Origin: Candidatus Saccharimonadota bacterium
GTDB taxonomy: Bacteria > Patescibacteriota > Gracilibacteria > UBA4473
Direction of reading: 5' to 3'
DNA length: 32,000 nt
Assembly (NCBI GenBank): GCA_963677105.1
Contig: OY781871.1
Coordinates: forward strand, 150,001-182,000
Shown: piece by piece, positions 5,261 to 23,157 of the stretch
Position numbering within the stretch: position 1 is the first letter of the stretch
Layout of the letters: every line of letters begins with the position of its first letter
Made by a program: the position numbers and the translations under genes
Notes under the pieces: generated by a model
What the model saw: the letters and a program-made list of their open reading frames with translations, nothing else
Told to the model about the DNA's origin: nothing
Databases searched by the model: none

Positions 5261-6691
5261 TTAATTTACTTCAATTACAAGTTCACTATTGGCTGTATCC
5301 CAATAGATTTTTCCACTTCCAATCTGAATTGCATCGGTACTAGAAGTGTCATCAAATTTTACGGCTCCACTAACATGTAGCTTTGCCGTCGGATCTGCTA
5401 CATTGACTCCTAAATCTCCATTTGCATCCAAAATCATTTGTTGCGTTCCAGCCGTATCAAATCGAATAATATCTTCGTCAGCACTTTCTTCTACTTGAAC
5501 TAACGTATCTCCATCCGCATCTGTCATAGAGTTACTGCTCAATATTCCTGTAGCAACAGTTGTTCCATTCCATTTCAATATACCTCCAACAGCATACAGT
5601 TTGTTTGTTGTCGTCCCTGGCTCTGTCATATCTGATAAATGAATATCTCCGTTTATATCCAAAAGACTTGCCGGCGTTGCCGTTCCAATTCCTACATTTC
5701 CATTTTTTAATACAGTCATAGCATTCGCCTCTGAACCCACACCTGTTCCAATTCCTATCTCGAAGACCGAATCTAAATTATACCAATTTGTCGCTGAATT
5801 ACTTTCTGTTGCAATCCCAATATTATATCTTCCAATCGCACGACTTGCAAGTGATGCAGCATGTGTTGAATAACCTCCAGCATGGGAATAACTCCCCTCT
5901 GCATATGTATCACCACCTTCTGCATGCGAAGAACCACCCTCGGCATGCGAAGAATAACCTTCCGCATGCGCATAATCATACGATGCATATGTAATACCAC
6001 CTTCAGCGTGCGATGCATACCCTTCTGCATGTGAACCTACTCCCTCTACATGTGAATTTACCCCTTCAGCAATTGTTTGATACCCTTCTGCATGTGAATT
6101 ATCAATTACATCCCCAAATAAAAATGATAATCCCGGAGCGTAATCAAAACCATCTCCAGTAATTCCTGCCGCAGCTATACTTGCTGCCGTCATCGTAATT
6201 GTTGTTGCTGTCTTAGACTCTACTACCAATCCTTGATACCAATCTTCATCGTACCCTTCATAAGCAACCATCGTCTCTCCAACACCTACTGTTGATGTGG
6301 ATTCACCCGAACTCACTGTAAATGTACGCGTTGAATGTACGTAGCTATCTAGCAATATTTGTTTTCGTGCCATCGCAAATTTTCCTCTCTCACTTGATCC
6401 ATTTTCATAAAATCGATGACTTGCACCACTTATTCCAACTATATCTAATTTTGCATTTGGATCATCTGTTCCTATTCCAACAAATCCGGCATCAGTGTAA
6501 TGAACTACTTTATTTGTCGTTACATTGTAGGTTGGTCCAGTAGCAAACACTATTCCTGAAATCAAAAGACTCACCATTGTCATTCCGAGCTTAATTCGGA
6601 ATTCAACAGTATAACTCTTTGCTCTGAGCTGCGGATTAATCCCGCAGTTACAAAGTGCTTTTTTCACGAACGCAAGAAATAGTTTTTTCAT
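5261..6691 (-). CDS. Secreted fibre-like protein with a YadA-head/Hep_Hag-like 'SHAEG' repeat array and tail-fibre-like C-terminal modules. The start is uncertain: 6736, 6691 or 6583.
   Basis: The track ORF is 5261..6736. I prefer ATG 6691 (MKKLFLAF...) because it overlaps the TGA of the upstream small ORF as ATGA, the coupling seen elsewhere in the locus. ATG 6583 (MTMVSLLISGIVFATG) is an alternative signal-peptide-like start downstream of a hairpin. Motifs present: GFVGIGTDDPNAKLDIVG, the SHAEGY/SHAEGG array, GNVGIGTATPASLLDINGD, and DTLVQVEESADEDIIRFDTAGTQQMILDANG. Confidence 0.85.
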   Translation of the reverse strand: MKKLFLAFVKKALCNCGINPQLRAKSYTVEFRIKLGMTMVSLLISGIVFATGPTYNVTTNKVVHYTDAGFVGIGTDDPNAKLDIVGISGASHRFYENGSSERGKFAMARKQILLDSYVHSTRTFTVSSGESTSTVGVGETMVAYEGYDEDWYQGLVVESKTATTITMTAASIAAAGITGDGFDYAPGLSFLFGDVIDNSHAEGYQTIAEGVNSHVEGVGSHAEGYASHAEGGITYASYDYAHAEGYSSHAEGGSSHAEGGDTYAEGSYSHAGGYSTHAASLASRAIGRYNIGIATESNSATNWYNLDSVFEIGIGTGVGSEANAMTVLKNGNVGIGTATPASLLDINGDIHLSDMTEPGTTTNKLYAVGGILKWNGTTVATGILSSNSMTDADGDTLVQVEESADEDIIRFDTAGTQQMILDANGDLGVNVADPTAKLHVSGAVKFDDTSSTDAIQIGSGKIYWDTANSELVIEVN

Positions 6692-7023
6692 TGTGTGTAT
6701 TTGTTTACGATTTGAGTTCGAACTGTACAAGTCCAAACTCCGAATATACGCGCATTCTCGCTACCAAAAGTAATGTAGTTCAGCCCTGTCGCCACTGCCC
6801 CCAATGCCGACAGGACAGAGCTCACTACTTCTGAGAATGAAAATGAAGTGTATGTCATAAGAAAGTTAGTATTAGATGAAACATCACATTTCTGATTCTT
6901 CTCGTCTTTTCCACCAAAAGTAATGTAGTTCAGCCCTGTCGCCACTGCCCCCAATGCCGACAGGACAGAGCTCACTACTTCTGGTGATGAAAACGATGTA
7001 TATGTCATAAGAAAATTAAACAT
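6688..7023 (-). CDS. Possible small protein (111 aa from ATG 7023; track ORF starts at 7038) with an internal 50-codon duplication. It may instead be a non-coding structured repeat region.
   Basis: For coding: the ORF is open across both repeat copies; ATG 7023..7021 overlaps the upstream TAA as TAATG; its TGA overlaps the next ATG as ATGA; and the first three differences between copies are synonymous third-position changes (TAT/TAC, ACA/ACT, TCG/TCA). Against coding: the perfectly conserved core uses G-ending codons (GTG CTG TCG GGG GCG) that are atypical for neighbouring genes, and it folds into a long hairpin. Confidence 0.35.
   Translation of the reverse strand: MFNFLMTYTSFSSPEVVSSVLSALGAVATGLNYITFGGKDEKNQKCDVSSNTNFLMTYTSFSFSEVVSSVLSALGAVATGLNYITFGSENARIFGVWTCTVRTQIVNKYTQ
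6763..6868. repeat. Copy 1 of a tandem ~106-nt repeat (period 150 nt) containing a GC-rich 34-nt imperfect palindrome (6783..6816)
   Basis: 6763..6833 is identical over 71 nt to 6913..6983. Similarity continues with scattered mismatches to 6868/7018. Core palindrome: gccctgtcgccactgcccccaatgccgacaggac. Confidence 0.95.
6913..7018. repeat. Copy 2 of the tandem repeat (hairpin core 6933..6966), immediately downstream of the 850-aa gene stop
   Basis: Direct comparison with 6763..6868. The offset is exactly 150 nt. Confidence 0.95.
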
Positions 7024-9575
7024 TAAAAAGAGAACCAATTAGTACCATCTGAGTACAACCTCAAAACTCCATAATCAGCAGTTATATCGATTGAACTAGC
7101 ACCATCTATTGTTTGAGATGCCAGCGTATCAACAGTAATATTATTGGTTCCCGCACCTCCAGACTCGTCTTTAACAATGACGATCCGACCTTCTACTGTC
7201 TCTACTGTTGATAATGTAATTGTGCGCGCGACAGAAGTGTCCGTAATACCATAAATCGTTTCATTACCAATACTTCCTCCCACAGAACTTGCTGTACGAT
7301 TTACTAAAAATCTATCATTTAATGTTAACTTTGCATCTATTTCTACTTCTCCTTCAAAATGATTCAGTACCTTCTGTCCTACTTGATAAATACCATAGTT
7401 GTTATCTGCGTTGTCCCCCGTATCTATATATACTCCATAATTATTTGTTACCTTTTCCCCACTTGAACCAATATTTAATGGACTCACTCTATATCCAATA
7501 TGATTTTCCAAGGTATTCTTTGCTGTATCTTCCCAAATACGGTCATGTGCATCGTAATTGATGATGCTTGTTACTTTTGCTGCTGCTTCTGAACCAATTG
7601 CATCAGCTCTATTCGCAATATATTCACTTCCAGTACCAGATAAAATTTCTATTGATATGACATTTTTTATTCCTACACCATATGTAGAATTATCATCAAA
7701 ACGCGTAGAAGACGAAATTGTTGCATCCTCATCAAGATCTATAACACCACTTCTTTTTTCTTGAACGGATAATTTATAACTTGGTGCCGATGTTCCAATT
7801 CCCACTTTTCCACTAGCATCAATAATCATGCGTTCTGATCCCGCGGTATCAAATCTGATTTTGTCTTCGTCTGCTGATTCTTCTACTTGAATTTTTGTAT
7901 CACTGTCTGTATCTGTCACCGCATCTGATGAAATCCCCGCAAGAGCTCCTGTAACAAATGCAGTTGTTGCAATTGAAGTATCATTATCTCCTGTCGTTGG
8001 TGTTGGTGCTGTTGGATCTCCTGTAAATGTTGGACTTGCTATATCTGCTTTATCTGTAGTCAATGTATCGATATTCGTTGCATTGGTAATAATATTCGTC
8101 GTATTTGTCGCAACAGCTCCAGTTTCCAATGCTGATAATTCTGTATCAGTCGCAAGTGTTACTCCCCAAATTGTTTCTACTTCTCCTTGAGTATCCCATT
8201 CACTATCTCTCGTAATCGTACTAGCAATTCTTGCATCTGCCACAGTTCCCGTTGAAATATTTGTTCCAGAAATTCCTGATCCTACGGCTGAACCACTCAA
8301 ACTTCCATCTGCCAAATCACCTAAATATGTATTTAACTCTGTTAATGTATTATTTATCCACGCTGTTCCACTCCATTTCAATATTTCTCCTGCAGAATTA
8401 CTAGTAATTGTTGTATCTGACAAACTATCTAAACTTGAAACAAGCCCTGTCAAACCAGATCCATCTCCCACAAATTCTGTCGCTGTTACTGTTCCATAAA
8501 CATCTAATGAACTTGTTTGAGTTGTTGTTCCTATTTCTACTGTTCCTGCATCTCCATCTATATAAAATGTATTGGGAACCGTAATACCCACAGCCTGTAT
8601 TTCTCCATCTACTTCTAATTCTGTTGATGGTGCTAGTAACCCAATTCCAACTCTATGATTTATTGTATCTACATGTAATGTCATTGTGTCTACAGTAAGT
8701 CCTCCAGAATTTACCACTCCTGCCGTAGTTACATTTGCACTATTGTCTACCACGAAAGAATTTCCACTATCTTTTTCTATATTTATAAGATCTCCAGTTC
8801 CGTACTGTGTTCCCCAAAGTAATGGATCGGTTGTAGAATATCCAGACTCCGTTCCTGTTTCGAAATATGATTTATTTGGTAAACAAATTGCCGGACATGT
8901 TGTCGATTGTGTTCCAGGTAAACCTCCGCCAGTTGTACAAGAAGCACTTTTTTGCCATTCACAACCATTGTCTCCATCTGAACCAGAATCTCCTTCTCCA
9001 TTACCATCACAGTCCAAGTGAGTACTCTTACATCCAGCAGTACAATCTGCTTCCCAAATCACATTCGGTCGTCCCCACGCAGTACTACTATCTCCATTAA
9101 TATAAATCTCACAACCATCTCCATCGGTTGTGCTTCCATCACATTCCTGATAGTTCGCAATACATGTCGCAGAACAAGAGAACGTTGTCGCATTCGCATC
9201 ACAAATTGTTTGACGATGTACATTATAACAAGATGAATCACGCTGACATTTCCAACCGGTTGTTCCCATTGTCGAACAAGTCGCTCCAGAATTTGCCACA
9301 CAATCAAACACAAATCCTCCTCCTAAACCTGAACTTGGATTATATGTTGATGTTGTTCCATCAGAACTAGGAATCGCTGCTTCAATATTTGCTTCTGTGT
9401 CACAATACAATGTGCTTGATGAATAACTACATGCATATGTATTCGCTCCACAATCTTGTGATTGATATGCTGTAGGACATAAAGCAGCATCTTTCACCCA
9501 TACTGCAGCAGATGCTGTCATTGGAAGAACCAATGCCAGTACGGTCATCGAAAGCCTGTATATTTTATTCATCAT
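7023..9575 (-). CDS. Secreted fibre protein (850 aa): signal peptide, Cys-rich N-terminal domain, tail-fibre-like shaft, distinct C-terminal beta-rich domain
   Basis: Track ORF. MMNKIYRLSMTVLALVLPMTASA is a signal peptide. Cys-rich motifs include ANYQECDGSTTDGDGCE and STHLDCDGNGEG..GCE. Shaft motifs include ASPTFTGDPTAPTPTTGDNDTSIATTAFV and DTKIQVEESADEDKIRFDTAGSERMIIDASGKVGIGTSAP. It ends ...ITVDTLASQTIDGASSIDITADYGVLRLYSDGTNWFSF. There is a 4-nt ATGA overlap with the upstream gene. Confidence 0.93.
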   Translation of the reverse strand: MMNKIYRLSMTVLALVLPMTASAAVWVKDAALCPTAYQSQDCGANTYACSYSSSTLYCDTEANIEAAIPSSDGTTSTYNPSSGLGGGFVFDCVANSGATCSTMGTTGWKCQRDSSCYNVHRQTICDANATTFSCSATCIANYQECDGSTTDGDGCEIYINGDSSTAWGRPNVIWEADCTAGCKSTHLDCDGNGEGDSGSDGDNGCEWQKSASCTTGGGLPGTQSTTCPAICLPNKSYFETGTESGYSTTDPLLWGTQYGTGDLINIEKDSGNSFVVDNSANVTTAGVVNSGGLTVDTMTLHVDTINHRVGIGLLAPSTELEVDGEIQAVGITVPNTFYIDGDAGTVEIGTTTQTSSLDVYGTVTATEFVGDGSGLTGLVSSLDSLSDTTITSNSAGEILKWSGTAWINNTLTELNTYLGDLADGSLSGSAVGSGISGTNISTGTVADARIASTITRDSEWDTQGEVETIWGVTLATDTELSALETGAVATNTTNIITNATNIDTLTTDKADIASPTFTGDPTAPTPTTGDNDTSIATTAFVTGALAGISSDAVTDTDSDTKIQVEESADEDKIRFDTAGSERMIIDASGKVGIGTSAPSYKLSVQEKRSGVIDLDEDATISSSTRFDDNSTYGVGIKNVISIEILSGTGSEYIANRADAIGSEAAAKVTSIINYDAHDRIWEDTAKNTLENHIGYRVSPLNIGSSGEKVTNNYGVYIDTGDNADNNYGIYQVGQKVLNHFEGEVEIDAKLTLNDRFLVNRTASSVGGSIGNETIYGITDTSVARTITLSTVETVEGRIVIVKDESGGAGTNNITVDTLASQTIDGASSIDITADYGVLRLYSDGTNWFSF

Positions 9576-12500
9576 TTACAACAAGCAAGATTAAAGGACA
9601 CTCCACAGTTGGACACTTTTCCAGATCCTCCCGTAGTTGTATCTGTTCGCCAGAAACTTCCAAGATATGTACCTCCCACTCCATGTGTCCAACCATTACA
9701 ATCATTTACTGGTAAATCTGCTGGTGAGTATTTTGCTCCTCCAGTACTCATCCACACATCTCCACTCCATCCAGTCAACGTACTCAAATCAGCTACCGTT
9801 TCAATTGTGTACAAAATTTCTGCCTGAGAACATAAGTGACTTCCTGTGTGATCTGCCGCACACAATGCGTTTCCTGATTTATATCCATTCACTCCTAAAT
9901 TTCCTGTGTAAGTTGCAGTTGTTTTTCCAACGAAAACAGAAGCACTCTGTGCCAAAACGGTCGCATACAAATCTGAAACATCTACTCCATCAACAGTTCC
10001 TGAAACAGCAATATTTCCGACTACATCAAGTGCTTCTGTTGGTGTTGTTGTTCCAATTCCTACATTATAATTACCCTCTTCTGATAATAAAATATTCTTA
10101 CCACTCAGACTGCTATCAATTCTTAATACATTTGTGGCATCTGCCTCATCATAAATAATAAATGCATCATCGTATTCATCTGCCATGTTAAAAAATGCAG
10201 GACGATCCCCTGAAACATTTAAACTATAATTTCCTGGTGTTGTCGTACCAATTCCCACATTTCCATCTCCAGAAATTCTCATTGCTTCTCCCATTCCATT
10301 TGTTGAGTCTGAAGTAGAAAAGCTTAATCCCATCTCTCCTTCACCCGTTCCAGCATTTTCAGCAATAAGTTTTATTGCTCCAACATTTTGGTTTCCTGCC
10401 TGCACAATTGTTTTAAAATACAATGCTGACAATTCTGTTCCTGCTGTAAAACTACCGTAAGAATAACCATTAAGCGTTGCATTTACAGAACTGCTTGAAT
10501 TTGAAAGAAGGAGATTCCCAACCACATCTAATGCTTCATTTGGATCCGTTGTACCGATTCCTACATTGCTTCCCTTTGCCGTTAAAATTTCCGTCCCATC
10601 AACCCAAAGTCCCAACGAATCCATTGCATTTCCAGCATAATCTCCCACAAAAATATGATTATCTCCGGTACGATCTCCTTTTTTCAAAACAGGGATACCA
10701 CTTAATGCAATTTCTCCATATACATCCAACTCTTTTATTGGACTTGTCGTTCCAATTCCCACATTTCCACTTGTATCAACCTGCAATCCTGTGTAAGAAA
10801 TCTTGTAAGATTGAGCAGGAGAAACTGTCTGTGAAACAGAAACTGTAAGACTTGTTGATGAATTAAATGCTGTAATTGTTCCGGCACTTCTTCCATCAGC
10901 AAATACAAACTGTGAACCTACCATTGCAGAAGTAAACGTTGTTCCAACTCCTGTAATCGTTGTCGCTAACTGAGAAGCTGTTCCTGTGTCGTATTGCGTT
11001 GGAGTAACAGAAAAAATTCCAGCAGGAGCTCTCGTTCCTATTCCTACATTATAATCTCCTGCTTCTGAAAAAAGAATTGTTTTGGCATCATTATTAATTC
11101 GAAAGGCGTTTTCCCCTTCAGGATCACTATAAATAACAAATGCATCGCTCGTTTCAGATGCTATTGTAAAATACGCCGAACGATCTCCATCAACTTTTAA
11201 CCTATAATCTCCTGGCGTCGTCGTTCCAATTCCTACATTTCCACCTTCAAAAACAAAATTAGCATTCTCCCACCTTAAAAGACCAATGTCAGGATTTTCT
11301 GCATTATTAAATCTTATTCCAAGATCTCCCGCCAGATTATCTGTTTTCAACTCTAAAAAAGCATCATGATCCTCATTATTATAAATTAAAGCCGTTGTTT
11401 CTGAACTACCACTTTCAACTTCCAAGGTTGCCACAGGATCTGTTGTTCCAATTCCCACTTTCCCATTAGTCAATGTCATTACTTCTGCAGAAGTGTCGTC
11501 ATACAATGCTAATCTCGCCCCGGCACCATCAACATCTCCTAACTTTAAGGCGTCATTTACTGAATCATATTGTACAAATGGTGCTCCATTATGCGCTATG
11601 AAATCTCCTACTACATCTAACGCTGCTGCTGGACTCGATGTTCCTATTCCCACGTTTCCTCCATCTTCAATTGTTAAATCAATGCTATTATTTGTTCCTA
11701 ATGCCACAGCTCCACTTCCTAGATTTACTAAATTCATGGAACTTGCTCCTCCATAACCAGTTGCTGTAGAACCAGCCATAAAAAATCCTCCTCGTAAGGC
11801 ACTTGTATCATTTCCAAATTCTAAAACGGCATATGAACTCGGAGTCATTTCTCGAATATTCACTCGTCCATCAAGAACGCTTAATTTTTGACCAGGTGTA
11901 CTCGTCCCAATTCCTACATTTCCATTCTCATCAATAATCATTCGCTCCGTTCCCGCTGTATCAAATCGAATCTTATCTTCATCTGCAGATTCTTCTACTT
12001 GAATCTTCGTATCTTCATCTGCATCTATCACTGAATCTGATGATATACTTCCAAGTGCTCCCGTAACAAAAGCAGTTGTTGCAATCGATGTGTCATTATC
12101 TAATGCTGTTGGCGTTGGTGCTGTTGGGTCTCCCGTAAGTGCTGCATTCGTAAACATCGTTGCCTTGCTTTCATTTGTCACATTTCCCAATCCTAATGAT
12201 GTTCTTACGGTTGCCCCTGTTTCATACGCAAATGTTCCTGCCGTTCCTGTTGACACAATAAATTGACCATCTGTTGCGTCCACCACGTCTAATGTGTTCA
12301 AGTCCTCAAGTATTCCTGTTGTAGTTAATCCTCCAGTTGTAGTTGCTAATCCTCCAGCTGCTGTAACTGTTAATGTATCATCTGTTAACGTTATTCCATC
12401 TCCAACCGCTAAATTTGTTTCATCTGAAATATCTATTTCTGATCCAAGTAAAGAAACACTTGAATCAACCGAAACAAGTCCACTATCTGCTCGTAAAACT

Positions 12501-14899
12501 CCTGTTAATCCAGTTGGCAATGTTACTGTTCCCGTAAAGGTTGGTGAAGCCAATGGTGCTTTTGATAAAAGTTCTGTATTTATTTTTAAAGCACTCCAAA
12601 GATTTGTTGGTAACGTTCCACTGTCATTCAAACTTAATCCACTATCTGTAAGATTCCCATTCGTATCTAATCCAGCCAAGTTTCCATTTGTTGCTCCGGA
12701 TACTTTATCTGCCTTATCTCCTAATACAGAAGTGTTTGTTGAAATATTTGATACATTCGTAGCCACTGTTCCAGATAATGACGAAACATCTACTCCGTCC
12801 ACTAATCCTGCTGTAACAATTCCTCCAACCGTGAGAACATTTGTTGTTGTTGCACCACGATCTGTCACCAAATCTAGCGTATCTACTTCCGTAACGGTAC
12901 TATTTGCAATTTCTGTTTTAATTTTATCTACACTCCAGAAAACATCTGTTCCAGAAGTTGCTGTATCATCTAATCCAACCATCGAAGCCGTAATTCCACT
13001 TACCGTTCCGGTGAATGTTGGACTTTCAAGAAATGCAAATGTTTTTCGCGCAGCTCCCGTAGTAATCGTTCCATAAAAGGCATCATTTAAGAATTCTACA
13101 CTTCCTACTTCTGGCGTCGTCAAAAGATCTCCTGATGTAAATTTCAATGGAGCTGTGTTTGCTGCTGTTGTTCCTGCTTTTAAATGTAAAGCCGCTGTTG
13201 GTGAAGTGGTTCCAATTCCTACATTTCCTGTATGTGATGAACCAGCTGTGTCAATAAAGAAAGGATATGTTGCTACTGAACCATCCCAAGATTTTATTAC
13301 AAAGTCATAGGATGGTGTATAAAATCCATATATACCCGATTCTAAATATCCAAACTTAGAACCGCCTGGCCATTGAATATAATTTTGATTATTTGTTCCC
13401 AGTCTTATGTTTCCAACAACCTCCAAAGCCTCATTTGGCGTTGTCGTTCCAATTCCTACCTTTCCTGCATTATCTATTACCATCTTAGGAGTCACTGCTC
13501 CCCAACCAGTACCAAACGCTAATCCCGTCTCACTCGACCCAAATGTATATCCTCGAACGCTCGCAGCTTCTGTTCCGTTTGTATGAGAAAATACTATTCG
13601 TCCTCCACTTCCCACTGTTCCAGCAGAATAAGTAGATGTTAATTCTAGCGTATCTTGACCATCAGCAGACACTGATAATCCATCTGAAATATGTAATCTT
13701 GTAGATGGGGTTGCTGTTCCAATTCCAACATTTCCGGTCGCATCCACCTGCAATCCCGTATATGAAATTTTATAATCCTGAGAAGAAACAGTTTGCGATT
13801 CTGAAACAGTAAGTTCTGTCGCAGAAGTAAATGCTGTAACAGTTCCTGCACTCGTTCCATCATCAAAGACAAATTGTGATCCAACCATGTCTGACGTAAA
13901 TGTCGTTCCAACTCCAGTAATTGTTGTTCCTGACTGAGAAGCGGTTCCCGTATTGTATTGTTCTGGCGTAACCGACAAAATTCCTGTTGGTGTTGTCGTT
14001 CCAATTCCTACATTCGCATCATTATCTACTACGAAAGAATTTCCACTGTCTTTCTTAAAATTTATTAAATCTCCTGTTCCCAATTGTTTTCCCCAAAGCA
14101 ACGGATTCGATGTCGTATATTCTGCTTCTGTTCCTGTTTCAAAATTTTCTGGCTCAAATGGTACACATGTACATGTTCCTCCAGCTGTTCGATTTCCATT
14201 TGTTCCAGCTCCCGTACAACTTCCTGGCAATCCACCTGAAACCATTGTACAAAGATCACTTGTGTGCCCATTACATCCTTCTACTTCTGGAGTTTCTCCT
14301 GTAACAGTAAAGTAACCACTCGCGCAGGTTCGATCACTACAAGATGTGCTTCCATATAATGTATGTGCTGGAGAGGGTGCTGCCGTTACATTTTTACGAA
14401 TTTCACAGGTTGAATCTGGAGATGCACTACAATTTCGGTATCCGCTGATACAACCTGAATCTGACCCTGCAGCCACTGTTTTACAAGTCGCAGTACCTGC
14501 AACACTTCCCGTACATTGTGTTTCTACATGAGCACTAACACAACTCGTCTTTTGCTGACACTTCCAGTTTGCTGGTGATGGTGTACAAGCACTTGTTCCG
14601 AGACAGTGATAAATATATCCACCATTGGTAGAAAATGATGAATTATGATTTCCTCCCGTAGCAGCTGTTGTTGGCAATGTACCTGTAATCGCTGCCGGCA
14701 ATGAACATGCCGTATAACTACATTGCACTTGTTGTCCGCCCTCTGTTGGACATGGAGCTGATACATCTTCTCGTCCTTGCACACAATTTGCTGGATCTGT
14801 TGCCCAATCATCTCCTGCATAATCAGCTGCCCATACGATTCCCTTCCCCCCCAAGAGGAGAACAAAAAAGATGAGACTGAACAATTTCTTATTCATCAT
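9572..14899 (-). CDS. Giant secreted fibre protein (1775 aa): signal peptide, Cys-rich N-terminal domain, long shaft of NVGIGT repeats, conserved C-terminal Cys-containing '...ACCK' domain
   Basis: Track ORF. MMNKKLFSLIFFVLLLGGKGIVWA is a signal peptide. There are more than 15 copies of (G)NVGIGT(T/S)xP. Other motifs: ESPTFTGTVSGI, DPTAPTPTALDNDTSIATTAFV, DTKIQVEESADEDKIRFDTAG. An internal ~104-aa duplication is present. The C-terminus reads TATYTGNLGVNGYKSGNALCAADHTGSHLCSQAEI...NDCNGWTHG...SFNLACCK. Confidence 0.95.
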   Translation of the reverse strand: MMNKKLFSLIFFVLLLGGKGIVWAADYAGDDWATDPANCVQGREDVSAPCPTEGGQQVQCSYTACSLPAAITGTLPTTAATGGNHNSSFSTNGGYIYHCLGTSACTPSPANWKCQQKTSCVSAHVETQCTGSVAGTATCKTVAAGSDSGCISGYRNCSASPDSTCEIRKNVTAAPSPAHTLYGSTSCSDRTCASGYFTVTGETPEVEGCNGHTSDLCTMVSGGLPGSCTGAGTNGNRTAGGTCTCVPFEPENFETGTEAEYTTSNPLLWGKQLGTGDLINFKKDSGNSFVVDNDANVGIGTTTPTGILSVTPEQYNTGTASQSGTTITGVGTTFTSDMVGSQFVFDDGTSAGTVTAFTSATELTVSESQTVSSQDYKISYTGLQVDATGNVGIGTATPSTRLHISDGLSVSADGQDTLELTSTYSAGTVGSGGRIVFSHTNGTEAASVRGYTFGSSETGLAFGTGWGAVTPKMVIDNAGKVGIGTTTPNEALEVVGNIRLGTNNQNYIQWPGGSKFGYLESGIYGFYTPSYDFVIKSWDGSVATYPFFIDTAGSSHTGNVGIGTTSPTAALHLKAGTTAANTAPLKFTSGDLLTTPEVGSVEFLNDAFYGTITTGAARKTFAFLESPTFTGTVSGITASMVGLDDTATSGTDVFWSVDKIKTEIANSTVTEVDTLDLVTDRGATTTNVLTVGGIVTAGLVDGVDVSSLSGTVATNVSNISTNTSVLGDKADKVSGATNGNLAGLDTNGNLTDSGLSLNDSGTLPTNLWSALKINTELLSKAPLASPTFTGTVTLPTGLTGVLRADSGLVSVDSSVSLLGSEIDISDETNLAVGDGITLTDDTLTVTAAGGLATTTGGLTTTGILEDLNTLDVVDATDGQFIVSTGTAGTFAYETGATVRTSLGLGNVTNESKATMFTNAALTGDPTAPTPTALDNDTSIATTAFVTGALGSISSDSVIDADEDTKIQVEESADEDKIRFDTAGTERMIIDENGNVGIGTSTPGQKLSVLDGRVNIREMTPSSYAVLEFGNDTSALRGGFFMAGSTATGYGGASSMNLVNLGSGAVALGTNNSIDLTIEDGGNVGIGTSSPAAALDVVGDFIAHNGAPFVQYDSVNDALKLGDVDGAGARLALYDDTSAEVMTLTNGKVGIGTTDPVATLEVESGSSETTALIYNNEDHDAFLELKTDNLAGDLGIRFNNAENPDIGLLRWENANFVFEGGNVGIGTTTPGDYRLKVDGDRSAYFTIASETSDAFVIYSDPEGENAFRINNDAKTILFSEAGDYNVGIGTRAPAGIFSVTPTQYDTGTASQLATTITGVGTTFTSAMVGSQFVFADGRSAGTITAFNSSTSLTVSVSQTVSPAQSYKISYTGLQVDTSGNVGIGTTSPIKELDVYGEIALSGIPVLKKGDRTGDNHIFVGDYAGNAMDSLGLWVDGTEILTAKGSNVGIGTTDPNEALDVVGNLLLSNSSSSVNATLNGYSYGSFTAGTELSALYFKTIVQAGNQNVGAIKLIAENAGTGEGEMGLSFSTSDSTNGMGEAMRISGDGNVGIGTTTPGNYSLNVSGDRPAFFNMADEYDDAFIIYDEADATNVLRIDSSLSGKNILLSEEGNYNVGIGTTTPTEALDVVGNIAVSGTVDGVDVSDLYATVLAQSASVFVGKTTATYTGNLGVNGYKSGNALCAADHTGSHLCSQAEILYTIETVADLSTLTGWSGDVWMSTGGAKYSPADLPVNDCNGWTHGVGGTYLGSFWRTDTTTGGSGKVSNCGVSFNLACCK
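10739..11053 (-). repeat. Intragenic duplicated module (copy B, ~105 aa) in the 1775-aa gene
   Basis: YNVGIGTRAPAGIFSVTPTQYDTGTASQLATTITGVGTTFTSAMVGSQFVFADGRSAGTITAFNSSTSLTVSVSQTVSPAQSYKISYTGLQVDTSGNVGIGTTSP aligns along its length with the copy at 13706..14017. Confidence 0.9.
13706..14017 (-). repeat. Intragenic duplicated module (copy A, ~104 aa) in the 1775-aa gene
   Basis: ANVGIGTTTPTGILSVTPEQYNTGTASQSGTTITGVGTTFTSDMVGSQFVFDDGTSAGTVTAFTSATELTVSESQTVSSQDYKISYTGLQVDATGNVGIGTATP. Confidence 0.9.
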
Positions 14900-14916
14900 T
14901 TACAACAGGCTATTTT
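14866..14916. repeat. 51-nt segment spanning the gene junction, identical to 19545..19595
   Basis: The run aaaagatgagactgaacaatttcttattcatcatttacaacaggctatttt occurs at both junctions. Flanks stay similar with few mismatches for roughly 40 nt further on each side. Confidence 0.95.
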
Positions 14917-17900
14917 TAAAGACGAACTACAAAGAGCTGTTTTCCCAACTCCCCCCATAGTGTCAAATTTCCAGAAATTTCCGTAACTTCCCGTTCCTCC
15001 TGAAAAAGTCCAACCATCACAGTCATTCGTATTATCTGTACTTGGAAACTTCGCCGCTCCGGTGCTAATCCAAACTTCTTGTCCGTCTAATGAAGTAACA
15101 TCTTCACTACTTATTGTGTAAAAAATCTCATCACTTGAACACATGTGACTTCCTGTATATTCATCATCACAAATAGCATGAGCTGCTTTATATCCAGTAA
15201 GTCCTCCTGTAAATGAAAGTGAGCCATTATAATTATCAGGAGTTCTTCCTACATATTTCGCTTGCTCATTTGCTACAACACTCGCCGCCAAGTCAGAAAC
15301 ATCTACTCCATCAACAGTTCCTGAAACCGCAATATCTCCACCAATTGTTGCATCTCCTGAAAGGAACAAGTCTTGCCATTCAGATGAACCTGATCCCAAA
15401 TCATATGCATTGGTTGCATTTGGAAGGAGATTATTTGCATTAACATTTGCGTCTACATTTAAAATTCCCGATAGAGTTCCTCCTGTTAACTGTAAATAAT
15501 CAGAATCATGATTGTGCGTACCACTCACTTTTGAGGCTAAATCTGTTTCAATATCTTCTAATCGCAAATCTACTGATCCAAATATTCCACTGGCAGAAGA
15601 ATTTCGTGCTTCCAAAACTTCTGTTTCAACGGTTGTCGATCCTTGTCCCGCCCAAGTCGCTCCATCATAACCGACTAAAGTAACACCAGAAATAACTGGA
15701 GTAGAAGTACCAGATCCACTAACCATAGTAGCCTTGGCTCTTAAATCGGTACCAATATTGGTGAATTCCCACATAGATCCAGGAGTAACTGGACCTTCCC
15801 AATTAGAACCCCCATCTGCTGTCAAATACCAAGTAATAGAATCACCAGCACCTGCTCCTCCACTATAATCAAATTTAGCCATAGTAAAGTCGGCTACAGA
15901 AGTAGCTAAAGTCTCTGTTTCAAAAGTATTAGAAGCCTCAAAAATTAACTGACTCTTCGACATGTGAGTGTCAGAATAATTAGAAAAATACCAATAGCCA
16001 TTATAATAATGCGGCTGCCAATGATAAGAAGATGTTTCTTCTGCGTTACCAGTGACTTTTCCTGTGTCAGATATAATAAAATACTCCTGAGCAGTTAAAT
16101 CATAAACTAAATATCCATAGGGCATACCACTCCAAGCACCAAGCCAAATTTGATTATTGATTCGAGCTATATCCCAACGAGTAACGGCTACTGGAATCTC
16201 ATCAATAATCTTATGAAATTCTAGTGAACCAGTAGTTTTAGATAATTTTTGCCAATTATTATAACCAGACAACCAAACAATGTCGGAATCCAAAGGATCT
16301 TGAAAAGAAGAATAAACATCATCATGATAAGTATTAATTCCTGGAGTAGTATCTGTGTCATAATGTTGAATTAACGTATCAGTGTCCATATCCCAAATAT
16401 AGAAACCATTAGAAGTAGACAGATGTAATTCATTACCATACGTCTCAGAAGCATAATATGTACCAGACACTAAACCATCTACAGAACCATAATCAGTAAA
16501 AGTGTCGGCTAACACATCATAAACCTGCATATAACCAGTAGTTGGGAAGGTGTAAATCTTCCCATCATAATATTCCATAGCACTATCAAATGATGTTCCA
16601 TGATTCAATGAATTTAAATCAGAATTTGAAGTAGTGAATTGAGTAACGGTATTAGAATCAATATCAATCTTAATCATTCCATTGTCATAACTATTATTCG
16701 TAGCATAAAGATCATTCCGTACCGGATCATAAGCCAAATGCTGCCAATAATTATTTGGTAGAGATGGGGTAGAAGCAGTCCACCATTCATTTGCTATGGT
16801 TTCAGTATCTAAATTAATAATTTTAATTCCATATCCATAGGTACCTAAATACATCTTATTTCCATAAATCAAAGTACCACCCATAGATCGAGAAGATCCA
16901 TAACCATAACTCAAACTTATTGTTTCCCAAGCACTATGATCATTTTGAATCGTACCTAATTGATTATTATAATAAGCGGTAGTATTAGCTGTTTTAACTT
17001 TGGAAGAATCCATGAAATTCTCACCAACTACGGTCGCATTACTCAAAATAGAAGAATAATTCGCAATAACACCATTAAATCGATCATTTAATGAAGCATA
17101 CGTACTTCGACCAGCGACCACCTCGTCCACACGATCTCCCGAAATCATTCCCGTGTTATCAATTACTGTCGTACTTCCCACTTTAAATCCTCCTGTTGCA
17201 CTTACTGTTCCTGTTGCAGAAATATCTCCTGTTGCACTTACGTCTCCAGTCAAACCAATTCCACTTGTACTTGTTATGCTAATTGGATTCGTTCCATCTC
17301 CAATGGTAAGCATTCCATCTGATTCAATGGAAGCTGCTGAAGAAAACTTTAAATTTCCTGCAATTTCCAACTTTTCACTCGGTGTCGTTGTCCCGATTCC
17401 TACATTTCCCGTTGCTGCATCAATTCTCATTGCCTCTTGCACACTTCCGTCATAATACTGAAAATAATAATCATTTCCTCCAAAATAAACGTGATCATGA
17501 TAATATTTTGCTCCGCTATCAAAACTAAGGAAGTTACTACTATCTAATCGAATATTTCCTTCCTCTATATCTAATTTTTCAGCTGGAGTCGCTGCTCCAA
17601 TTCCCACATTTCCATCTTCATCAATTATCATTCTCTCTGTTCCAGCCGTATCAAAACGTATTTTATCTTCATCGGTTGACTCTTCTACTTGAATTTTTGT
17701 ATCACTATCTGCATCTGTCATTGAATCTGATGATATACTTCCAAGCGCTCCTGTAACGAAAGCTGTTGTCGCAATCGAAGCATCATTATCTCCTGCTGTT
17801 GGTGTTTGTGATTGAGGATCTCCGGTGAATGTTGGACTTTCAAGAAATGCAAATGTTTTTCTCGTTGTATCTGGTGTAAAGAAGAGATCTGTCCCATCAA

Positions 17901-19578
17901 ATTCCATTACTCCCGCTTCTGGTGTAGTAAGATTTATTCCTGATGTGAATTTCAATGGAGCTGTACTTGCCGTGGCTGTTCCTGCTTTCAAATGAAGTGC
18001 TGCTGTTGGACTTGTCGTCCCGATTCCCACGTTTCCACTTCCCGTAATACGCATCTTCTCAGATGTAATCTCTGCCTCTGCTGTTGAAAAATATAAGGCC
18101 ACATCATCATCTAGGACCACATCATTTGTTTTTAATGCTCCAATTTCTACTTCCCCATTCGCCACTTTAAATGTTTGTTTTATACCTGTTCCTTCTGACC
18201 CTCCACCATTATGTAACTTTATCCCCCCTGAAATAGTTGATGCCGCTCCAACATACATTGAATAAGCGTAACTCTTATCTGCCTTATAGTCATGTGTCCC
18301 ACTAAAAATGGTTCCCTCAACATTTAAATGCGATTTTGCAGAAAGGACTGAACTTGCATCATTAACATTTAACCTTACATCACCATCGTCTCTCACCACA
18401 AAAACAGGGGCATCTGCACTATTTTTTATACTTAATCCATATGTAGAAGATGTTGTCCCCGCTCCTTTAATATCTAACTTTGCACCTGGACTCACCGCTC
18501 CAATTCCTACATTCGCGTCATTATCTACGACAAATGAATTCGTTCCATTAGATAAATCTAAAAGTGAACCTGTTCCTTCTTGCACTCCCCAAACTAATGG
18601 ATCTGATGTTGTAAACATTGCTGCTGACTGAGTATATGCTCCATCTGCATCTACAAAACCTCCTGCTGCAAACTCTGGAATATCTAACTCTGAACAGGCA
18701 CATGTTTGAGGACTTGCACTCGTCACAACTCCTGTCGATCCGGCTCCAGTACATTCTCCTGGTAATCCTGATGCTGTAACGGTACAAGCTTCATCCACAA
18801 CTCCATCACATCCATCAGTAGTGATTGTGTCTCCACTCAATAAGAAATATCCATCTGCACATGTTCGAGTAGAACAAGTAGTTGCATATAATACATTATC
18901 TTCTCCGGACACAGGAGTTACATTTTTTTGAACTTCACATGCTCCATCTGATCCCGTTCCTGTTCCATTACAATCAAGATATGAACTATGACAAACAGGG
19001 TCACAATCCGATTCATATTTAACGTGAGTTCCATAATCATCTCCACTATTTCCATAGAGAATCTCACAATCTGAAGTATCAGTATCACAGTTGGTGTATC
19101 CCGTCATACAATTCGTTGTTTCGCCCTGTATCCCCTCGTCACATGAGAAATGCCCTCCTTTTCCATCAACTCCTTGTTCACATTCCGTTGTTACATGTAA
19201 AGCTACACAAGTCGAATCCTCTTGACAAAACCAGTTTGCTGGCATTGTTGCTGGTGATGGCATACAAGAATTTGTCCCTAAACAATGATATACATATCCT
19301 CCGACACTTTCCGTTCCTCCATCTTTCCATCCATAATCTGCTGAACTTAGTGCTCCTGTAGCAGGAATATTCCCTGAAATATCTGCTGCTGTTGAACAAG
19401 TCGTTGTATTACACTGATACTGATCAATTGGACATTCTGCACTCGTTTCTTCAATTCCATTCACACAATTGGCTGGATCTGTGGCCCAATTATCTCCTGT
19501 AATTGCTGCCCACACAGTTCCATTCCCCCCAAGGAGAAGAACAGAAAAGATGAGACTGAACAATTTCTTATTCATCAT
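14896..19578 (-). CDS. Giant secreted fibre protein (1560 aa): signal peptide, Cys-rich N-terminal domain, tail-fibre-like shaft, inserted beta-propeller-like region plus beta-sandwich, C-terminal '...ACCK' domain
   Basis: Track ORF. MMNKKLFSLIFSVLLLGGNGTVWA is a signal peptide. Motifs: SSYLDCNGTGTGSDGACE, NVGIGTTSPTAALHLKAGTATASTAPLKFTSG, ESPTFTGDPQSQTPTAGDNDASIATTAFV, DTKIQVEESTDEDKIRFDTAG. A W/Y/D-rich repeat region follows (GNKMYLGTYGYGIKIINLDTETI..., DGKIYTFPTTGYMQVYDVLADTF...). It ends GYKAAHAICDDEYTGSHMCSSDEI...NDCDGWTF...SLKIACCK. Confidence 0.95.
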   Translation of the reverse strand: MMNKKLFSLIFSVLLLGGNGTVWAAITGDNWATDPANCVNGIEETSAECPIDQYQCNTTTCSTAADISGNIPATGALSSADYGWKDGGTESVGGYVYHCLGTNSCMPSPATMPANWFCQEDSTCVALHVTTECEQGVDGKGGHFSCDEGIQGETTNCMTGYTNCDTDTSDCEILYGNSGDDYGTHVKYESDCDPVCHSSYLDCNGTGTGSDGACEVQKNVTPVSGEDNVLYATTCSTRTCADGYFLLSGDTITTDGCDGVVDEACTVTASGLPGECTGAGSTGVVTSASPQTCACSELDIPEFAAGGFVDADGAYTQSAAMFTTSDPLVWGVQEGTGSLLDLSNGTNSFVVDNDANVGIGAVSPGAKLDIKGAGTTSSTYGLSIKNSADAPVFVVRDDGDVRLNVNDASSVLSAKSHLNVEGTIFSGTHDYKADKSYAYSMYVGAASTISGGIKLHNGGGSEGTGIKQTFKVANGEVEIGALKTNDVVLDDDVALYFSTAEAEITSEKMRITGSGNVGIGTTSPTAALHLKAGTATASTAPLKFTSGINLTTPEAGVMEFDGTDLFFTPDTTRKTFAFLESPTFTGDPQSQTPTAGDNDASIATTAFVTGALGSISSDSMTDADSDTKIQVEESTDEDKIRFDTAGTERMIIDEDGNVGIGAATPAEKLDIEEGNIRLDSSNFLSFDSGAKYYHDHVYFGGNDYYFQYYDGSVQEAMRIDAATGNVGIGTTTPSEKLEIAGNLKFSSAASIESDGMLTIGDGTNPISITSTSGIGLTGDVSATGDISATGTVSATGGFKVGSTTVIDNTGMISGDRVDEVVAGRSTYASLNDRFNGVIANYSSILSNATVVGENFMDSSKVKTANTTAYYNNQLGTIQNDHSAWETISLSYGYGSSRSMGGTLIYGNKMYLGTYGYGIKIINLDTETIANEWWTASTPSLPNNYWQHLAYDPVRNDLYATNNSYDNGMIKIDIDSNTVTQFTTSNSDLNSLNHGTSFDSAMEYYDGKIYTFPTTGYMQVYDVLADTFTDYGSVDGLVSGTYYASETYGNELHLSTSNGFYIWDMDTDTLIQHYDTDTTPGINTYHDDVYSSFQDPLDSDIVWLSGYNNWQKLSKTTGSLEFHKIIDEIPVAVTRWDIARINNQIWLGAWSGMPYGYLVYDLTAQEYFIISDTGKVTGNAEETSSYHWQPHYYNGYWYFSNYSDTHMSKSQLIFEASNTFETETLATSVADFTMAKFDYSGGAGAGDSITWYLTADGGSNWEGPVTPGSMWEFTNIGTDLRAKATMVSGSGTSTPVISGVTLVGYDGATWAGQGSTTVETEVLEARNSSASGIFGSVDLRLEDIETDLASKVSGTHNHDSDYLQLTGGTLSGILNVDANVNANNLLPNATNAYDLGSGSSEWQDLFLSGDATIGGDIAVSGTVDGVDVSDLAASVVANEQAKYVGRTPDNYNGSLSFTGGLTGYKAAHAICDDEYTGSHMCSSDEIFYTISSEDVTSLDGQEVWISTGAAKFPSTDNTNDCDGWTFSGGTGSYGNFWKFDTMGGVGKTALCSSSLKIACCK

Positions 19579-19595
19579 TTACAACAGGCTATTTT
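19545..19595. repeat. 51-nt junction segment identical to 14866..14916
   Basis: Direct comparison. It covers the signal-peptide codons of the downstream gene, the ATGATGA start/stop overlap, and the ...ACCK codons of the upstream gene. Confidence 0.95.
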
Positions 19596-23090: not shown

Positions 23091-23157
23091 TCGAAGATCC
23101 TTTCTTTAGAGGGGCAAAAAAACCTTCCCCGAGATTATCTCATGCAACTATAGAGTC

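What the first reader, a model, noticed from the sequence alone, without database searches (positions are those of the whole stretch)
6688..7038. Tandem 150-nt-period repeat with a GC-rich 34-nt hairpin between two fibre genes: small duplicated protein or structured RNA?
Two copies (6763..6868 and 6913..7018) share a 71-nt perfectly identical core. On the operon (minus) strand this core folds as a long hairpin. It has GUCCUGUCG/CGACAGGGC (9 bp), then CAUUG/CAGUG (5 bp) closing a GGGG loop, with outer helices GUAGU/ACUAC and (C/U)CAGAA/UUUUGG. It is the most GC-rich patch in an AT-rich locus. One ORF also reads through both copies, with a period of exactly 50 codons. It gives a duplicated peptide, MTYTSFS(S/F)(P/S)EVVSSVLSALGAVATGLNYITFG, whose hydrophobic Gly/Ala/Ser-rich stretch is TM-like. 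This ORF is coupled to both neighbours (TAATG upstream, ATGA downstream). The first three differences between the copies are synonymous. The two readings conflict. G-ending codons and perfect core identity favour an RNA or DNA element, such as an mRNA processing or stability hairpin that sets the stoichiometry of upstream versus downstream fibres. The frame-preserving period and the coupling favour a small membrane protein. I do not recognise either one.
Basis: seen in the sequence. Interest (0 to 1): 0.65.

Follow-up and report, generated by a model that had tools for sequence, protein, structure and literature searches.

The report
Conserved RNA hairpin inside bridging mini-ORF
Between two giant fibre genes of an uncultured bacterium lies a very stable RNA hairpin, present twice, that has stayed almost unchanged in related bacteria. 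It sits inside a tiny reading frame that is kept open, so the selected feature looks like a new mRNA element and not a small membrane protein.

Summary
A 106-nt unit occurs twice, 150 nt apart, with a 71-nt identical core. Each copy folds on the operon (minus) strand into a 34-bp hairpin of -48 to -56 kcal/mol, the strongest structures in the 32 kb.

Two syntenic loci from other metagenomes (L002, L003) carry one copy each. Their flanking fibre proteins are only 49-65% identical to the window's. The hairpin core (about 57 nt) is 100% identical, and the outer stem differs by three compensatory pair swaps.

In the upstream gene only 25 of 63 conserved residues keep the same codon. In the element 22 of 23 do, and all seven hairpin substitutions change the amino acid, six of them radically. 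So the constraint is on sense-strand RNA, not on the peptide.

The frame is nevertheless open in all three loci from a conserved AUG to the AUGA junction, despite net in-frame length differences of 111-132 nt. It is probably translated.

Best reading: a new cis-acting mRNA hairpin module inside a translated bridging mini-ORF. It probably controls processing, stability or ribosome flow between the fibre cistrons; that function is inferred. No Rfam, Pfam or other family matches. Interest is moderate.

The parts
6688..7008 (-). Bridging mini-ORF, 106 codons, from the conserved AUG in the motif CUUAUGACA to the UGA that overlaps the downstream AUG. An alternative start is the ATG at 7022-7020 within TAATG.
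   Evidence: The ORF is listed. This frame has 0 stops in the window, L002 and L003, while the other frames have 4-10. The probability that a given frame is open by chance is 0.005, 0.14 and 0.028 for the three loci.
6902..6996 (-). Hairpin A, copy 1. The conserved 34-bp stem is 6911-6987 with a GGGG loop. A copy-specific 7-bp extension (UCGUUUU/AAGACGA) lengthens it.
   Evidence: Fold -55.9 kcal/mol, z -9.4. Covariance model score 117.6 bits.
6753..6845 (-). Hairpin A, copy 2. The conserved stem is 6761-6837. A different 7-bp extension (CAUUUUC/GAGAAUG) lengthens it.
   Evidence: Fold -48.3 kcal/mol, z -5.9. Covariance model score 110.4 bits. The extension pairs through different sequence from copy 1.
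6988..7014 (-). Conserved G-poor 5' motif UUUCUUAUGACA(U/C)A(U/C)AC(A/U)UC(G/A)UUUUCAU, containing the mini-ORF start codon. This is copy 1; copy 2 lies at 6838-6864.
   Evidence: It is conserved in all four copies. CTTATGACA occurs only here in the window. Genes in this window start in G-poor stretches without a Shine-Dalgarno sequence.
6714..6740 (-). Accessory hairpin 3, GAGUUUGGACU-UGUAC-AGUUCGAACUC, 11 bp. It lies inside the mini-ORF tail.
   Evidence: It is conserved in L002, with G-U changed to G-C and to A-U. It is absent from L003, where other hairpins take its place.
6688..6691 (-). The ATGA junction: the stop codon of the mini-ORF overlaps the start codon of the 476-aa fibre gene. 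It is preceded by a conserved A/C-rich stretch, AAACA.A.ACACACA.
   Evidence: All three loci have the same junction.
6583..6647 (-). Two small in-frame GC-rich palindromes in the 5' part of the downstream gene: CUGCGGGAUUAAUCCGCAG (6629-6647) and UUCCGAAUUAAGCUCGGAA (6583-6601). They lie between the signal-peptide n-region and the hydrophobic segment.
   Evidence: They appear in the fold. L002 and L003 carry analogous but non-homologous palindromes at the same place. The relative L006 has none.
7023..9575 (-). Upstream fibre-like gene, 850 aa, ending ...YGVLRLYSDGTNWFSF.
   Evidence: It has weak PHROG tail-fibre and baseplate hits.
5261..6691 (-). Downstream fibre-like gene, 476 aa.
   Evidence: It has weak PHROG tail-fibre hits.

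Best explanation
The repeat is a conserved sense-strand mRNA structure. It is a hairpin of about 77 nt with 34 base pairs, a GGGG loop and a core of about 57 nt that does not vary. Lineage-specific accessory hairpins accompany it.

The structure is embedded in a short ORF that bridges two fibre cistrons of a tightly coupled operon. Selection acts on two layers:
- The RNA fold and its primary sequence are constrained. This is shown.
- The reading frame is kept open from a conserved AUG to the AUGA junction, so that ribosomes transit the spacer. Openness is shown; translation is inferred from it.
- The peptide itself does not appear to be the selected product.

Inferred mechanism: the long, nearly perfect duplex acts in cis on the polycistronic mRNA. 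It could be an RNase III-type processing site, a barrier to exonucleases, or a brake on ribosomes moving between cistrons. Any of these would set the amount of the last fibre relative to the upstream giant fibres.

Keeping the spacer translated would preserve translational coupling. It would also avoid Rho-type polarity across a structured insert of 330-560 nt.

The window lineage has duplicated the module in tandem. The duplication is old: the spacer between the copies has diverged, while the 71-nt core has not.
For: Structure:
- The four copies fold to between -48 and -56 kcal/mol on the sense strand, z -5.2 to -9.4. The antisense strand gives -29 to -37, so G-U pairs mark the mRNA strand.
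- Of 34 pairs, 93.4% of cells are paired, against 36-55% for slid controls. Three pairs show compensatory double changes and 23 never vary. RNAalifold agrees.
- The two window copies extend the stem with different sequences that each still pair.
- The accessory hairpins also vary in ways that keep pairing: double changes in two pairs and G-U to G-C or A-U changes in others.

Nucleotide-level constraint:
- The loci are orthologous. The upstream proteins are 48% identical over the N-terminal region and 65% over the C-terminal domain; the downstream C-terminus is about 49%.
- In the adjacent 99 codons, nucleotide identity is 64%, third-position identity is 39%, and 25 of 63 conserved residues keep the same codon.
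- In the element, nucleotide identity is 87.5%, third-position identity is 91%, and 22 of 23 conserved residues keep the same codon.
- All seven substitutions in the hairpin change the amino acid: E>K, V>G, S>I, N>R (two changes), Y>G, T>P.

Open frame:
- The frame has 0 stops in all three loci, against 4-10 in the other frames. Net length differences between the loci are multiples of three: 111 nt between the window and L002, and 132 nt between L003 and L002. These include the window's 150-nt tandem duplication and a 39-nt hairpin present only in L002 and L003. All three loci share the same AUGA end.

Placement:
- The element is found only at this syntenic junction. The covariance model found no other copy in about 470 kb of held sequence.
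- Strong hairpins in L002 and L003 cluster mainly at this junction and the 5' end of the downstream gene.
Against: - Only three loci are available, in effect two lineages, so covariation rests on few independent events.
- The specific function (processing, stability or ribosome throttling) is not tested by any data here.
- No RNase III gene or RNA-end data were available.
- A 100% identical core could also result from dual RNA and peptide constraint, or from recent exchange between lineages.
- Ribosomes that translate through the hairpin would keep melting it. How a translated hairpin acts is therefore unclear.
- The rest of the 962-kb source contig could not be searched for further copies.
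Confidence: 0.6

Rival explanations
1. The ORF encodes a functional small protein with a hydrophobic helix, acting as a membrane protein or a signal-peptide-like leader. It would have two helices in the window and one in L002 and L003. On this view the hairpin is only a regulatory feature of its mRNA, or a by-product.
For: - The frame is open in all three loci, with indels in multiples of three and coupling at both ends.
- The AUG and the N-terminal MT.TSFSS are conserved. Between the window copies, 4 of 7 differences are synonymous and 5 of 7 fall at third codon positions.
- The invariant core encodes the hydrophobic stretch SVLSALGAVATGL. The best 19-residue Kyte-Doolittle mean is 1.55-1.58, which is borderline for a membrane helix.
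Against: - There are no synonymous changes in the 19 core codons, although neighbouring genes are saturated at synonymous sites. That is not the signature of protein-level selection.
- All seven substitutions in the hairpin change the amino acid, mostly with changes of charge or helix-breaking residues, and several of them are compensated in the RNA stem.
- The rest of the peptide is unrelated between loci and varies from 69 to 113 residues.
- Searches of 5.8 billion and 1.84 billion proteins found no homologue other than P0122.
- There is no Pfam, PHROG or NCBIfam family.
- In L002 and L003 the uncharged stretch is only about 16 residues long.
Confidence: 0.12
2. The element is a selfish palindromic element that inserted in frame, comparable to Rickettsia palindromic elements, MITEs or REPINs. 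It is merely tolerated. The frame is kept open only to avoid polar effects, and the hairpin has no function for the host.
For: - Unit size is 106-150 nt with a long imperfect palindrome. It is duplicated in tandem in the window.
- The same junction and the signal-peptide region of the downstream gene have acquired other, lineage-specific in-frame GC-rich palindromes.
- Rickettsia palindromic elements of about 150 bp are known to insert in frame into ORFs (PMC10969869).
Against: - There is no second site. The element lies at one syntenic position in three loci whose flanking proteins are 49-65% identical.
- No copies were found elsewhere in the 32-kb window, in 30 kb of L002 and L003, in 79 other loci, or in the viral, genome, metagenome, phage and plasmid collections.
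- The invariant core and compensatory changes indicate long-term purifying selection.
- No terminal inverted repeats or target-site duplications were identified, though they were not specifically searched for.
Confidence: 0.15
3. The hairpin is cut out of the operon transcript and acts in trans as a small RNA of about 75-100 nt, or it is a specific protein-binding RNA. Its primary sequence is conserved because it base-pairs with, or is recognised by, a conserved partner.
For: - A core of about 57 nt, including the loop and the mismatches, is 100% identical across lineages that are saturated at synonymous sites. Helix maintenance alone does not need that much conservation.
- The tandem duplication would raise dosage.
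- A duplex of this length should be a substrate for double-strand-specific RNases. This rests on general knowledge.
Against: - No promoter-like or terminator-like signals flank the unit.
- No conserved complementary target was found within 1-1.5 kb on either side.
- The element lies inside an ORF that is kept open.
- No expression data are available.
Confidence: 0.1
4. The element acts at the DNA level, as a cruciform, a recombination site or a protein-binding palindrome. It might, for example, mark a boundary for exchanging fibre gene modules.
For: - The sequence is palindromic and sits at the boundary between mosaic fibre genes.
- The downstream genes of the close relatives L002 and L003 differ in length, 847 against 697 aa.
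Against: - The stem contains about five G-U pairs, which become C-A mismatches on the other strand. The antisense folds are about 20 kcal/mol weaker, and for L003 the antisense fold is no better than shuffles (z -0.7).
- The variable pairs include G-U types that are meaningful only in RNA.
- No recombinase or transposase gene was found among the window ORFs scanned.
Confidence: 0.03

Closest known systems
Intercistronic stabiliser and processing hairpins in polycistronic mRNAs, such as REP/BIME elements in E. coli operons, RNase III sites between phage T7 genes, and the puf operon hairpins (from established knowledge; one search lists reviews)
   Same: It is a stable sense-strand hairpin placed between cistrons of one operon. 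Its length is suited to double-strand-specific RNases. It is present in tandem, and the plausible effect is differential expression of the upstream and downstream genes.
   Different: - It lies inside an ORF that is kept open and is coupled at both ends, not in untranslated spacer.
- It is single-locus, not dispersed.
- Its invariant core of about 57 nt goes far beyond what those elements show.
- No cleavage or stability data exist for it.
Rickettsia palindromic elements (RPEs) and other coding MITEs
   Same: It is a palindromic unit of about 100-150 nt that is read in frame and contributes a peptide segment without obvious function (PMC10969869). Further in-frame palindromes have accumulated next to it.
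   Different: RPEs are multi-copy, are scattered in unrelated genes and form families. This element has one syntenic site plus a local tandem copy, makes up nearly a whole mini-ORF, and shows compensatory evolution and frozen synonymous sites.
Translational coupling devices and leader-peptide attenuators, in which ribosome transit remodels mRNA hairpins (from established knowledge)
   Same: It is a short ORF whose translation seems to matter more than its product. The ORF overlaps strong RNA structure and ends at an AUGA restart junction.
   Different: The downstream start lies in a G-poor, apparently unstructured stretch and is not sequestered by the hairpin. No alternative terminator or antiterminator folds were found.
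Type I toxin-antitoxin loci, such as the Ldr, Ibs and Hok long direct repeats
   Same: They share tandemly repeated units that encode a short hydrophobic peptide within a highly structured mRNA.
   Different: There is no own promoter or antisense RNA signal. The unit is embedded in an operon and coupled to it. The peptide is only weakly hydrophobic and is not conserved beyond the hairpin. There is no PADLOC or family evidence; PADLOC was not run.

Membership tests
Any Rfam RNA family | A covariance-model match at or near the family's gathering score | tested here: not met
   The only hit in the window at gathering score is a tRNA. A permissive scan of 6400-7300 gave only miRNA and snoRNA models 80-120 bits below their cut-offs. 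L002 and L003 gave nothing at E <= 0.1.
REP/BIME, REPIN or MITE-type dispersed palindromic repeats | Many copies dispersed in extragenic sites of the same genome, often in both orientations | tested here: inconclusive
   No extra copy was found in the 32-kb window, in L002 or L003, or in 79 other loci. None was found in the public collections. The rest of the 962-kb source contig could not be read.
Rickettsia palindromic elements (coding palindromes) | In-frame insertion of a palindromic unit into unrelated host ORFs at multiple sites | tested here: not met
   The in-frame palindrome part is met. Only one syntenic site is known, and the element forms its own mini-ORF instead of interrupting a host protein.
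Small membrane protein or type I toxin | Peptide sequence conserved under purifying selection, with a clearly hydrophobic transmembrane segment | tested here: not met
   Codons are identical in 22 of 23 conserved residues. All hairpin substitutions change the amino acid. The tail is unrelated between loci, and the best Kyte-Doolittle 19-residue mean is 1.55-1.58. Only one homologue was found.
Intrinsic (Rho-independent) terminator | A GC-rich stem immediately followed by a U tract | tested here: not met
   The terminator scan found none at 6688-7040 on the minus strand. The U run (CUUUUGG) is itself the 3' arm of the lower stem.
RNase III processing site or exonuclease-barrier hairpin | Cleavage or a stable 3' end at the hairpin in vivo, and a duplex of about 20 bp or more | not testable with these tools
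   The duplex length criterion is met, with 34 nearly continuous pairs. No transcript-end or enzyme data are available.
Diversity-generating retroelement TR/VR pair | Repeat differences confined to adenines of one copy, with a reverse transcriptase gene nearby | tested here: not met
   The differences between the copies are T/C, A/T, G/A, C/T and A/C. No RT domain was found in the ORFs scanned.
Integron attC site or other single-stranded-DNA recombination hairpin | A DNA-strand hairpin with conserved R''/R' boxes (RYYYAAC ... GTTRRRY) | tested here: not met
   By inspection of the sequence there are no such boxes. Folding strongly favours the sense RNA strand through G-U pairs.

The most novel reading that the evidence does not exclude
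This is a previously undescribed class of bacterial RNA element: an ultraconserved hairpin of about 77 nt that must also be translated. It would be a 'coding hairpin' bridging ORF that meters ribosome or RNase access between giant surface-fibre cistrons. Alternatively, it could be excised as a trans-acting small RNA in an uncultivated small-genome lineage.
Probability: 0.35. Interest if true: 0.65.

Novelty: new variant of a known kind. Interest (0 to 1): 0.52.

Why it matters
The element is a clean natural case of two overlapping layers of selection on one short sequence. One layer is an RNA fold with frozen synonymous sites and compensatory changes. The other is a reading frame that is kept open although its peptide is free to vary.

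If the hairpin meters expression between cistrons of an operon of 850-1,775-aa surface fibres, it would show how small-genome uncultured bacteria tune the stoichiometry of giant proteins after transcription.

There is also a practical lesson. Gene callers annotate this as a hypothetical protein in one locus (P0122) and skip it in another (L003). Both outcomes hide a structured RNA.

Tried and rejected
- **Third copy in the downstream gene.** I tested whether the N-terminus of the downstream protein is a third, degenerate copy of the unit, or whether the unit is a duplicated signal peptide. tblastn found nothing and shuffle p-values were 0.03-0.9. Not supported.
- **DGR template/variable repeat.** The differences are not adenine-specific.
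- **Frameshift or readthrough fusion to the upstream gene.** The mini-ORF is offset by -1 in the window but by +1 in L002 and L003. The zero frame has stops within 20 nt.
- **Alternative long-range pairing partners for the arms or the loop.** Only self-pairing was found. The 20-nt complementarity to 6501-6520 is not conserved.
- **Promoter for an independent small RNA gene.** No sigma-70-like site lies at 6700-7040 on the minus strand. The ATGACA motif has no matching -10 hexamer.
- **Genetic code 25 (UGA read as Gly).** Giant ORFs of up to 1,775 codons are free of UGA under table 11.
- **Collection scans.** Exact and gapped core patterns found nothing in the viral or genome collections. The metagenome scan gave one chance hit on a high-GC contig (L001). 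blastn against phages and plasmids gave no match.
- **Search for more orthologous loci through the upstream C-terminal domain.** This gave 13 GTDB loci and 66 IMG/VR loci. None has the element. The domain turned out to be a widespread phage-type fibre tip.
- **Length limit of the protein search.** The 150-aa query returned only proteins of 257 aa or fewer, so giant orthologues could not be listed.

Full report
**1. The observation**

- The repeat finder reports a 106-nt direct repeat, 6763-6868 and 6913-7018, 93% identical, spaced 150 nt apart.
- The 43-nt core occurs exactly twice in the window, with none expected in shuffles. The identical run is 71 nt.
- On the minus strand, which is the strand of the surrounding operon, the unit folds to -41.8 kcal/mol with z -5.7.
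- With their flanks, the two copies reach -55.9 (z -9.4) and -48.3 kcal/mol (z -5.9).
- In a 100-nt sliding fold of all 32 kb, windows over the two copies take the four lowest scores on the minus strand (z -8.0 to -4.1; next best -3.5).
- The 521-nt junction region as a whole has z -7.6.
- The ORF 6688..7038 (-) runs through both copies. It is bracketed by TAATG at the upstream stop and ATGA at the downstream start.

**2. Context**

The window is bacterial, not viral. It encodes an SLH and M23 peptidase protein, a staphylococcal-nuclease-like protein, a PLD-like protein and a giant FG-GAP protein.

The region 1-23105 on the minus strand is one tightly packed operon of secreted giant paralogues of 476-1,775 aa. 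They have weak similarity to phage tail-fibre families. Three of the other junctions are ATGA overlaps, and the last (5261-5265) leaves only one base between stop and start. Genes here lack Shine-Dalgarno sequences and start in G-poor stretches.

The only real gap in the operon is the 330 nt that the repeat occupies. The source contig is 962,416 bp long and the window has about 38% GC. The taxon could not be established.

**3. Relatives**

The mini-ORF has no homologue among 5.8 billion clustered proteins. A full phmmer search of 1.84 billion representatives found one: P0122, 90 aa, E 2.7e-5. P0122 lies on an ENA metagenome contig (L002) between a 2,599-aa gene and an 847-aa gene.

A third locus, L003 from a JGI metagenome, was reached through the C-terminal domain of the upstream protein. 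No gene had been called on the element there.

The loci are syntenic and orthologous.
- The upstream proteins share the N-terminal Cys-rich region (48% identity) and the C-terminal 99 residues (65%).
- The downstream proteins share the N-terminal MKKLFLAFVKK / MRKILLGFVRK and the C-terminal ...KIYWDT.NSELVI.VN, at about 49% identity.
- L002 and L003 are close to each other, with 92% amino-acid identity in the C-terminal domain. There are therefore effectively two lineages.

L002 and L003 carry one copy of the hairpin, so the tandem duplication is specific to the window lineage.

**4. RNA or peptide?**

Between the window and L002, the last 99 codons of the upstream gene are 64% identical at the nucleotide level. 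Third positions are 39% identical, and only 25 of 63 conserved degenerate residues use the same codon. Synonymous sites there are saturated.

In the adjacent 96 nt of the element, nucleotide identity is 87.5%. Identity at codon positions 1, 2 and 3 is 84%, 88% and 91%. Twenty-two of 23 conserved residues use the identical codon.

A run of about 57 nt, CTCTGTCC...GGGCTGA, is invariant in all four copies. The substitutions that do occur lie in the outer stem. All of them change the amino acid: E>K, V>G, S>I, N>R, Y>G, T>P.

Three pairs change on both sides and stay paired: CG/UA, UA/GC and GC/UA. Others switch between G-U and A-U or G-C, and one mismatch becomes a pair. Overall 93.4% of cells are paired, against 36-55% when the partners are slid by 1-3 columns. 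Twenty-three of the 34 pairs never vary. RNAalifold returns the same helix.

The two window copies extend the helix beyond the identical core with different sequences that each still pair. Copy 1 uses UCGUUUU/AAGACGA with UCACC/GGUGG. Copy 2 uses CAUUUUC/GAGAAUG with UUCUC/GGUAG.

The sense strand folds about 20 kcal/mol better than the antisense strand in all four copies. The antisense fold of L003 is no better than shuffles. The structure is therefore an RNA on the mRNA strand and not a DNA cruciform.

The accessory hairpins behave in the same way.
- Hairpin 3 (window 6714-6740) is shared with L002, with G-U changed to G-C and to A-U.
- A 39-nt GC-rich hairpin is present in L002 and L003 only. 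It shows one U-A to C-G swap.

**5. The frame is nevertheless maintained**

From the upstream stop to the ATGA junction, the mini-ORF frame has no stop in any of the three loci. The other two frames have 10 and 5 stops in the window, 4 and 6 in L002, and 6 and 6 in L003.

Measured from the conserved AUG, the ORFs are 321, 210 and 342 nt long. The net length differences between loci are all multiples of three: 111 nt between the window and L002, and 132 nt between L003 and L002. They include the window's 150-nt tandem duplication and the 39-nt hairpin that only L002 and L003 carry.

A first-order Markov model gives the chance that a given frame is open as 0.005, 0.14 and 0.028. I estimate the independent stretches at about 144 codons with about 0.05 stops per off-frame codon. 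Together with three or so in-frame indels, that puts chance at or below 1e-4. This last figure is my own inference.

The start lies in a conserved G-poor motif, UUUCUUAUGACA..., which matches how genes start in this genome. The ORF is therefore very probably translated.

Its product, however, is not conserved beyond the roughly 26 residues encoded by the constrained RNA. The tails are unrelated and total length ranges from 69 to 113 aa. The hydrophobic stretch is borderline: the best Kyte-Doolittle 19-residue mean is 1.55-1.58, and only about 16 uncharged residues are present in L002 and L003.

In the invariant core, a peptide constraint can be neither shown nor excluded. An RNA constraint is shown throughout.

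**6. Distribution**

The element matches no Rfam family. Its peptide matches no Pfam, PHROG or NCBIfam family.

Covariance model R1 finds only the four known copies in the window, L002, L003 and 79 further loci, about 470 kb in total. Core patterns are absent from the viral and genome collections. The single metagenome hit is a chance match. Phage and plasmid collections give nothing.

Relatives that have the same C-terminal domain followed by a homologous downstream fibre (L006-L008) go straight from stop to start, with a normal signal peptide and no insert.

In L002, L003 and the window, the 5' part of the downstream gene has additionally acquired lineage-specific in-frame GC-rich palindromes. 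They lie between the signal-peptide n-region and the hydrophobic segment.

**7. Interpretation**

Shown:
- a conserved sense-strand RNA hairpin module under nucleotide-level purifying selection;
- a single syntenic location;
- an open frame carried across it.

Inferred:
- Ribosomes leaving the upstream gene restart at the mini-ORF AUG, cross the hairpins, and terminate on the AUGA where the downstream fibre gene starts.
- The long duplex acts in cis as an RNase III-type site, an exonuclease barrier or a ribosome brake, setting the output of the last fibre relative to the upstream ones.
- Keeping the spacer translated preserves coupling and avoids polarity.

I give the general statement a confidence of 0.6. 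Within it, any single sub-mechanism is well below one half.

Rivals:
- selfish in-frame palindrome like the Rickettsia palindromic elements (PMC10969869): 0.15;
- functional small hydrophobic protein: 0.12;
- excised trans-acting small RNA or specific protein-binding RNA: 0.10;
- DNA-level site: 0.03.

**8. Novelty and verdict**

Intercistronic hairpins, coding palindromes and coupling ORFs are each known. The combination seen here was not found described, and it matches no curated family. That combination is an invariant core of about 57 nt, compensatory evolution, an obligatorily open bridging ORF and a single syntenic site.

I rate it a new variant of a known kind, with interest 0.52. The main limits are the small number of loci, the unknown host and the complete lack of expression data.

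Noticed in passing
window 7026-7325 (-); L004 10001-10360; L019-L084: The C-terminal domain of about 85 aa in the 850-aa protein (...KDESGGAGTNNITVDT...YGVLRLYSDGTNWFSF) has no Pfam family, yet it is widespread. It occurs as stand-alone small proteins in phage structural modules, in at least 66 IMG/VR contigs, and in 13 GTDB genomes labelled as Planctomycetales, Peribacteria, Saccharibacteria, Chloroflexota, Streptomyces and others.
   Followed up: partly
window 6583-6647 (-); L002 10300-10450; L003 880-1000: Lineage-specific GC-rich palindromes are inserted in frame in the 5' part of the downstream fibre gene. They split the signal-peptide n-region (MKKLFLAFVKK / MRKILLGFVRK) from the hydrophobic segment. 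The relative L006 has an uninterrupted signal peptide. In L002 and L003 one palindrome carries CTTATGACA, the mini-ORF start motif, in its loop.
   Followed up: partly
window 9572-23105 (-): Three giant paralogues of 1,775, 1,560 and 1,171 aa begin with near-identical signal peptides. They end in a conserved Cys-rich domain (...GW..G....G.FW......GG.GK...C..S...ACCK). Each stop overlaps the next start as TGTTGTAAATGATG. The C-terminal domain has no Pfam hit.
   Followed up: no
window 23881-23957 (+): A tRNA-Arg(TCG) gene sits alone in a gap of about 24.5% GC between the fibre operon and the next gene, on the strand opposite to the operon.
   Followed up: no
window 25628-26163: A 282-nt tandem repeat (1.9 copies, 85% matches) lies inside the 776-aa protein that carries AIR9-type Ig domains.
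   Followed up: no
window 5880-5975 (-): A 21-nt period repeat encodes HAEG(Y/G)xS heptads in the 476-aa fibre. These drive thousands of partial hits to proteins that contain YadA-head (Hep_Hag) repeats or a peptidase G2 domain.
   Followed up: no
tool behaviour: the search for homologous proteins with a 150-aa query listed only proteins of 257 aa or fewer. L002's 2,599-aa orthologue, 65% identical over the domain, was not returned. More orthologous junctions probably exist in the database than could be reached here.
   Followed up: no
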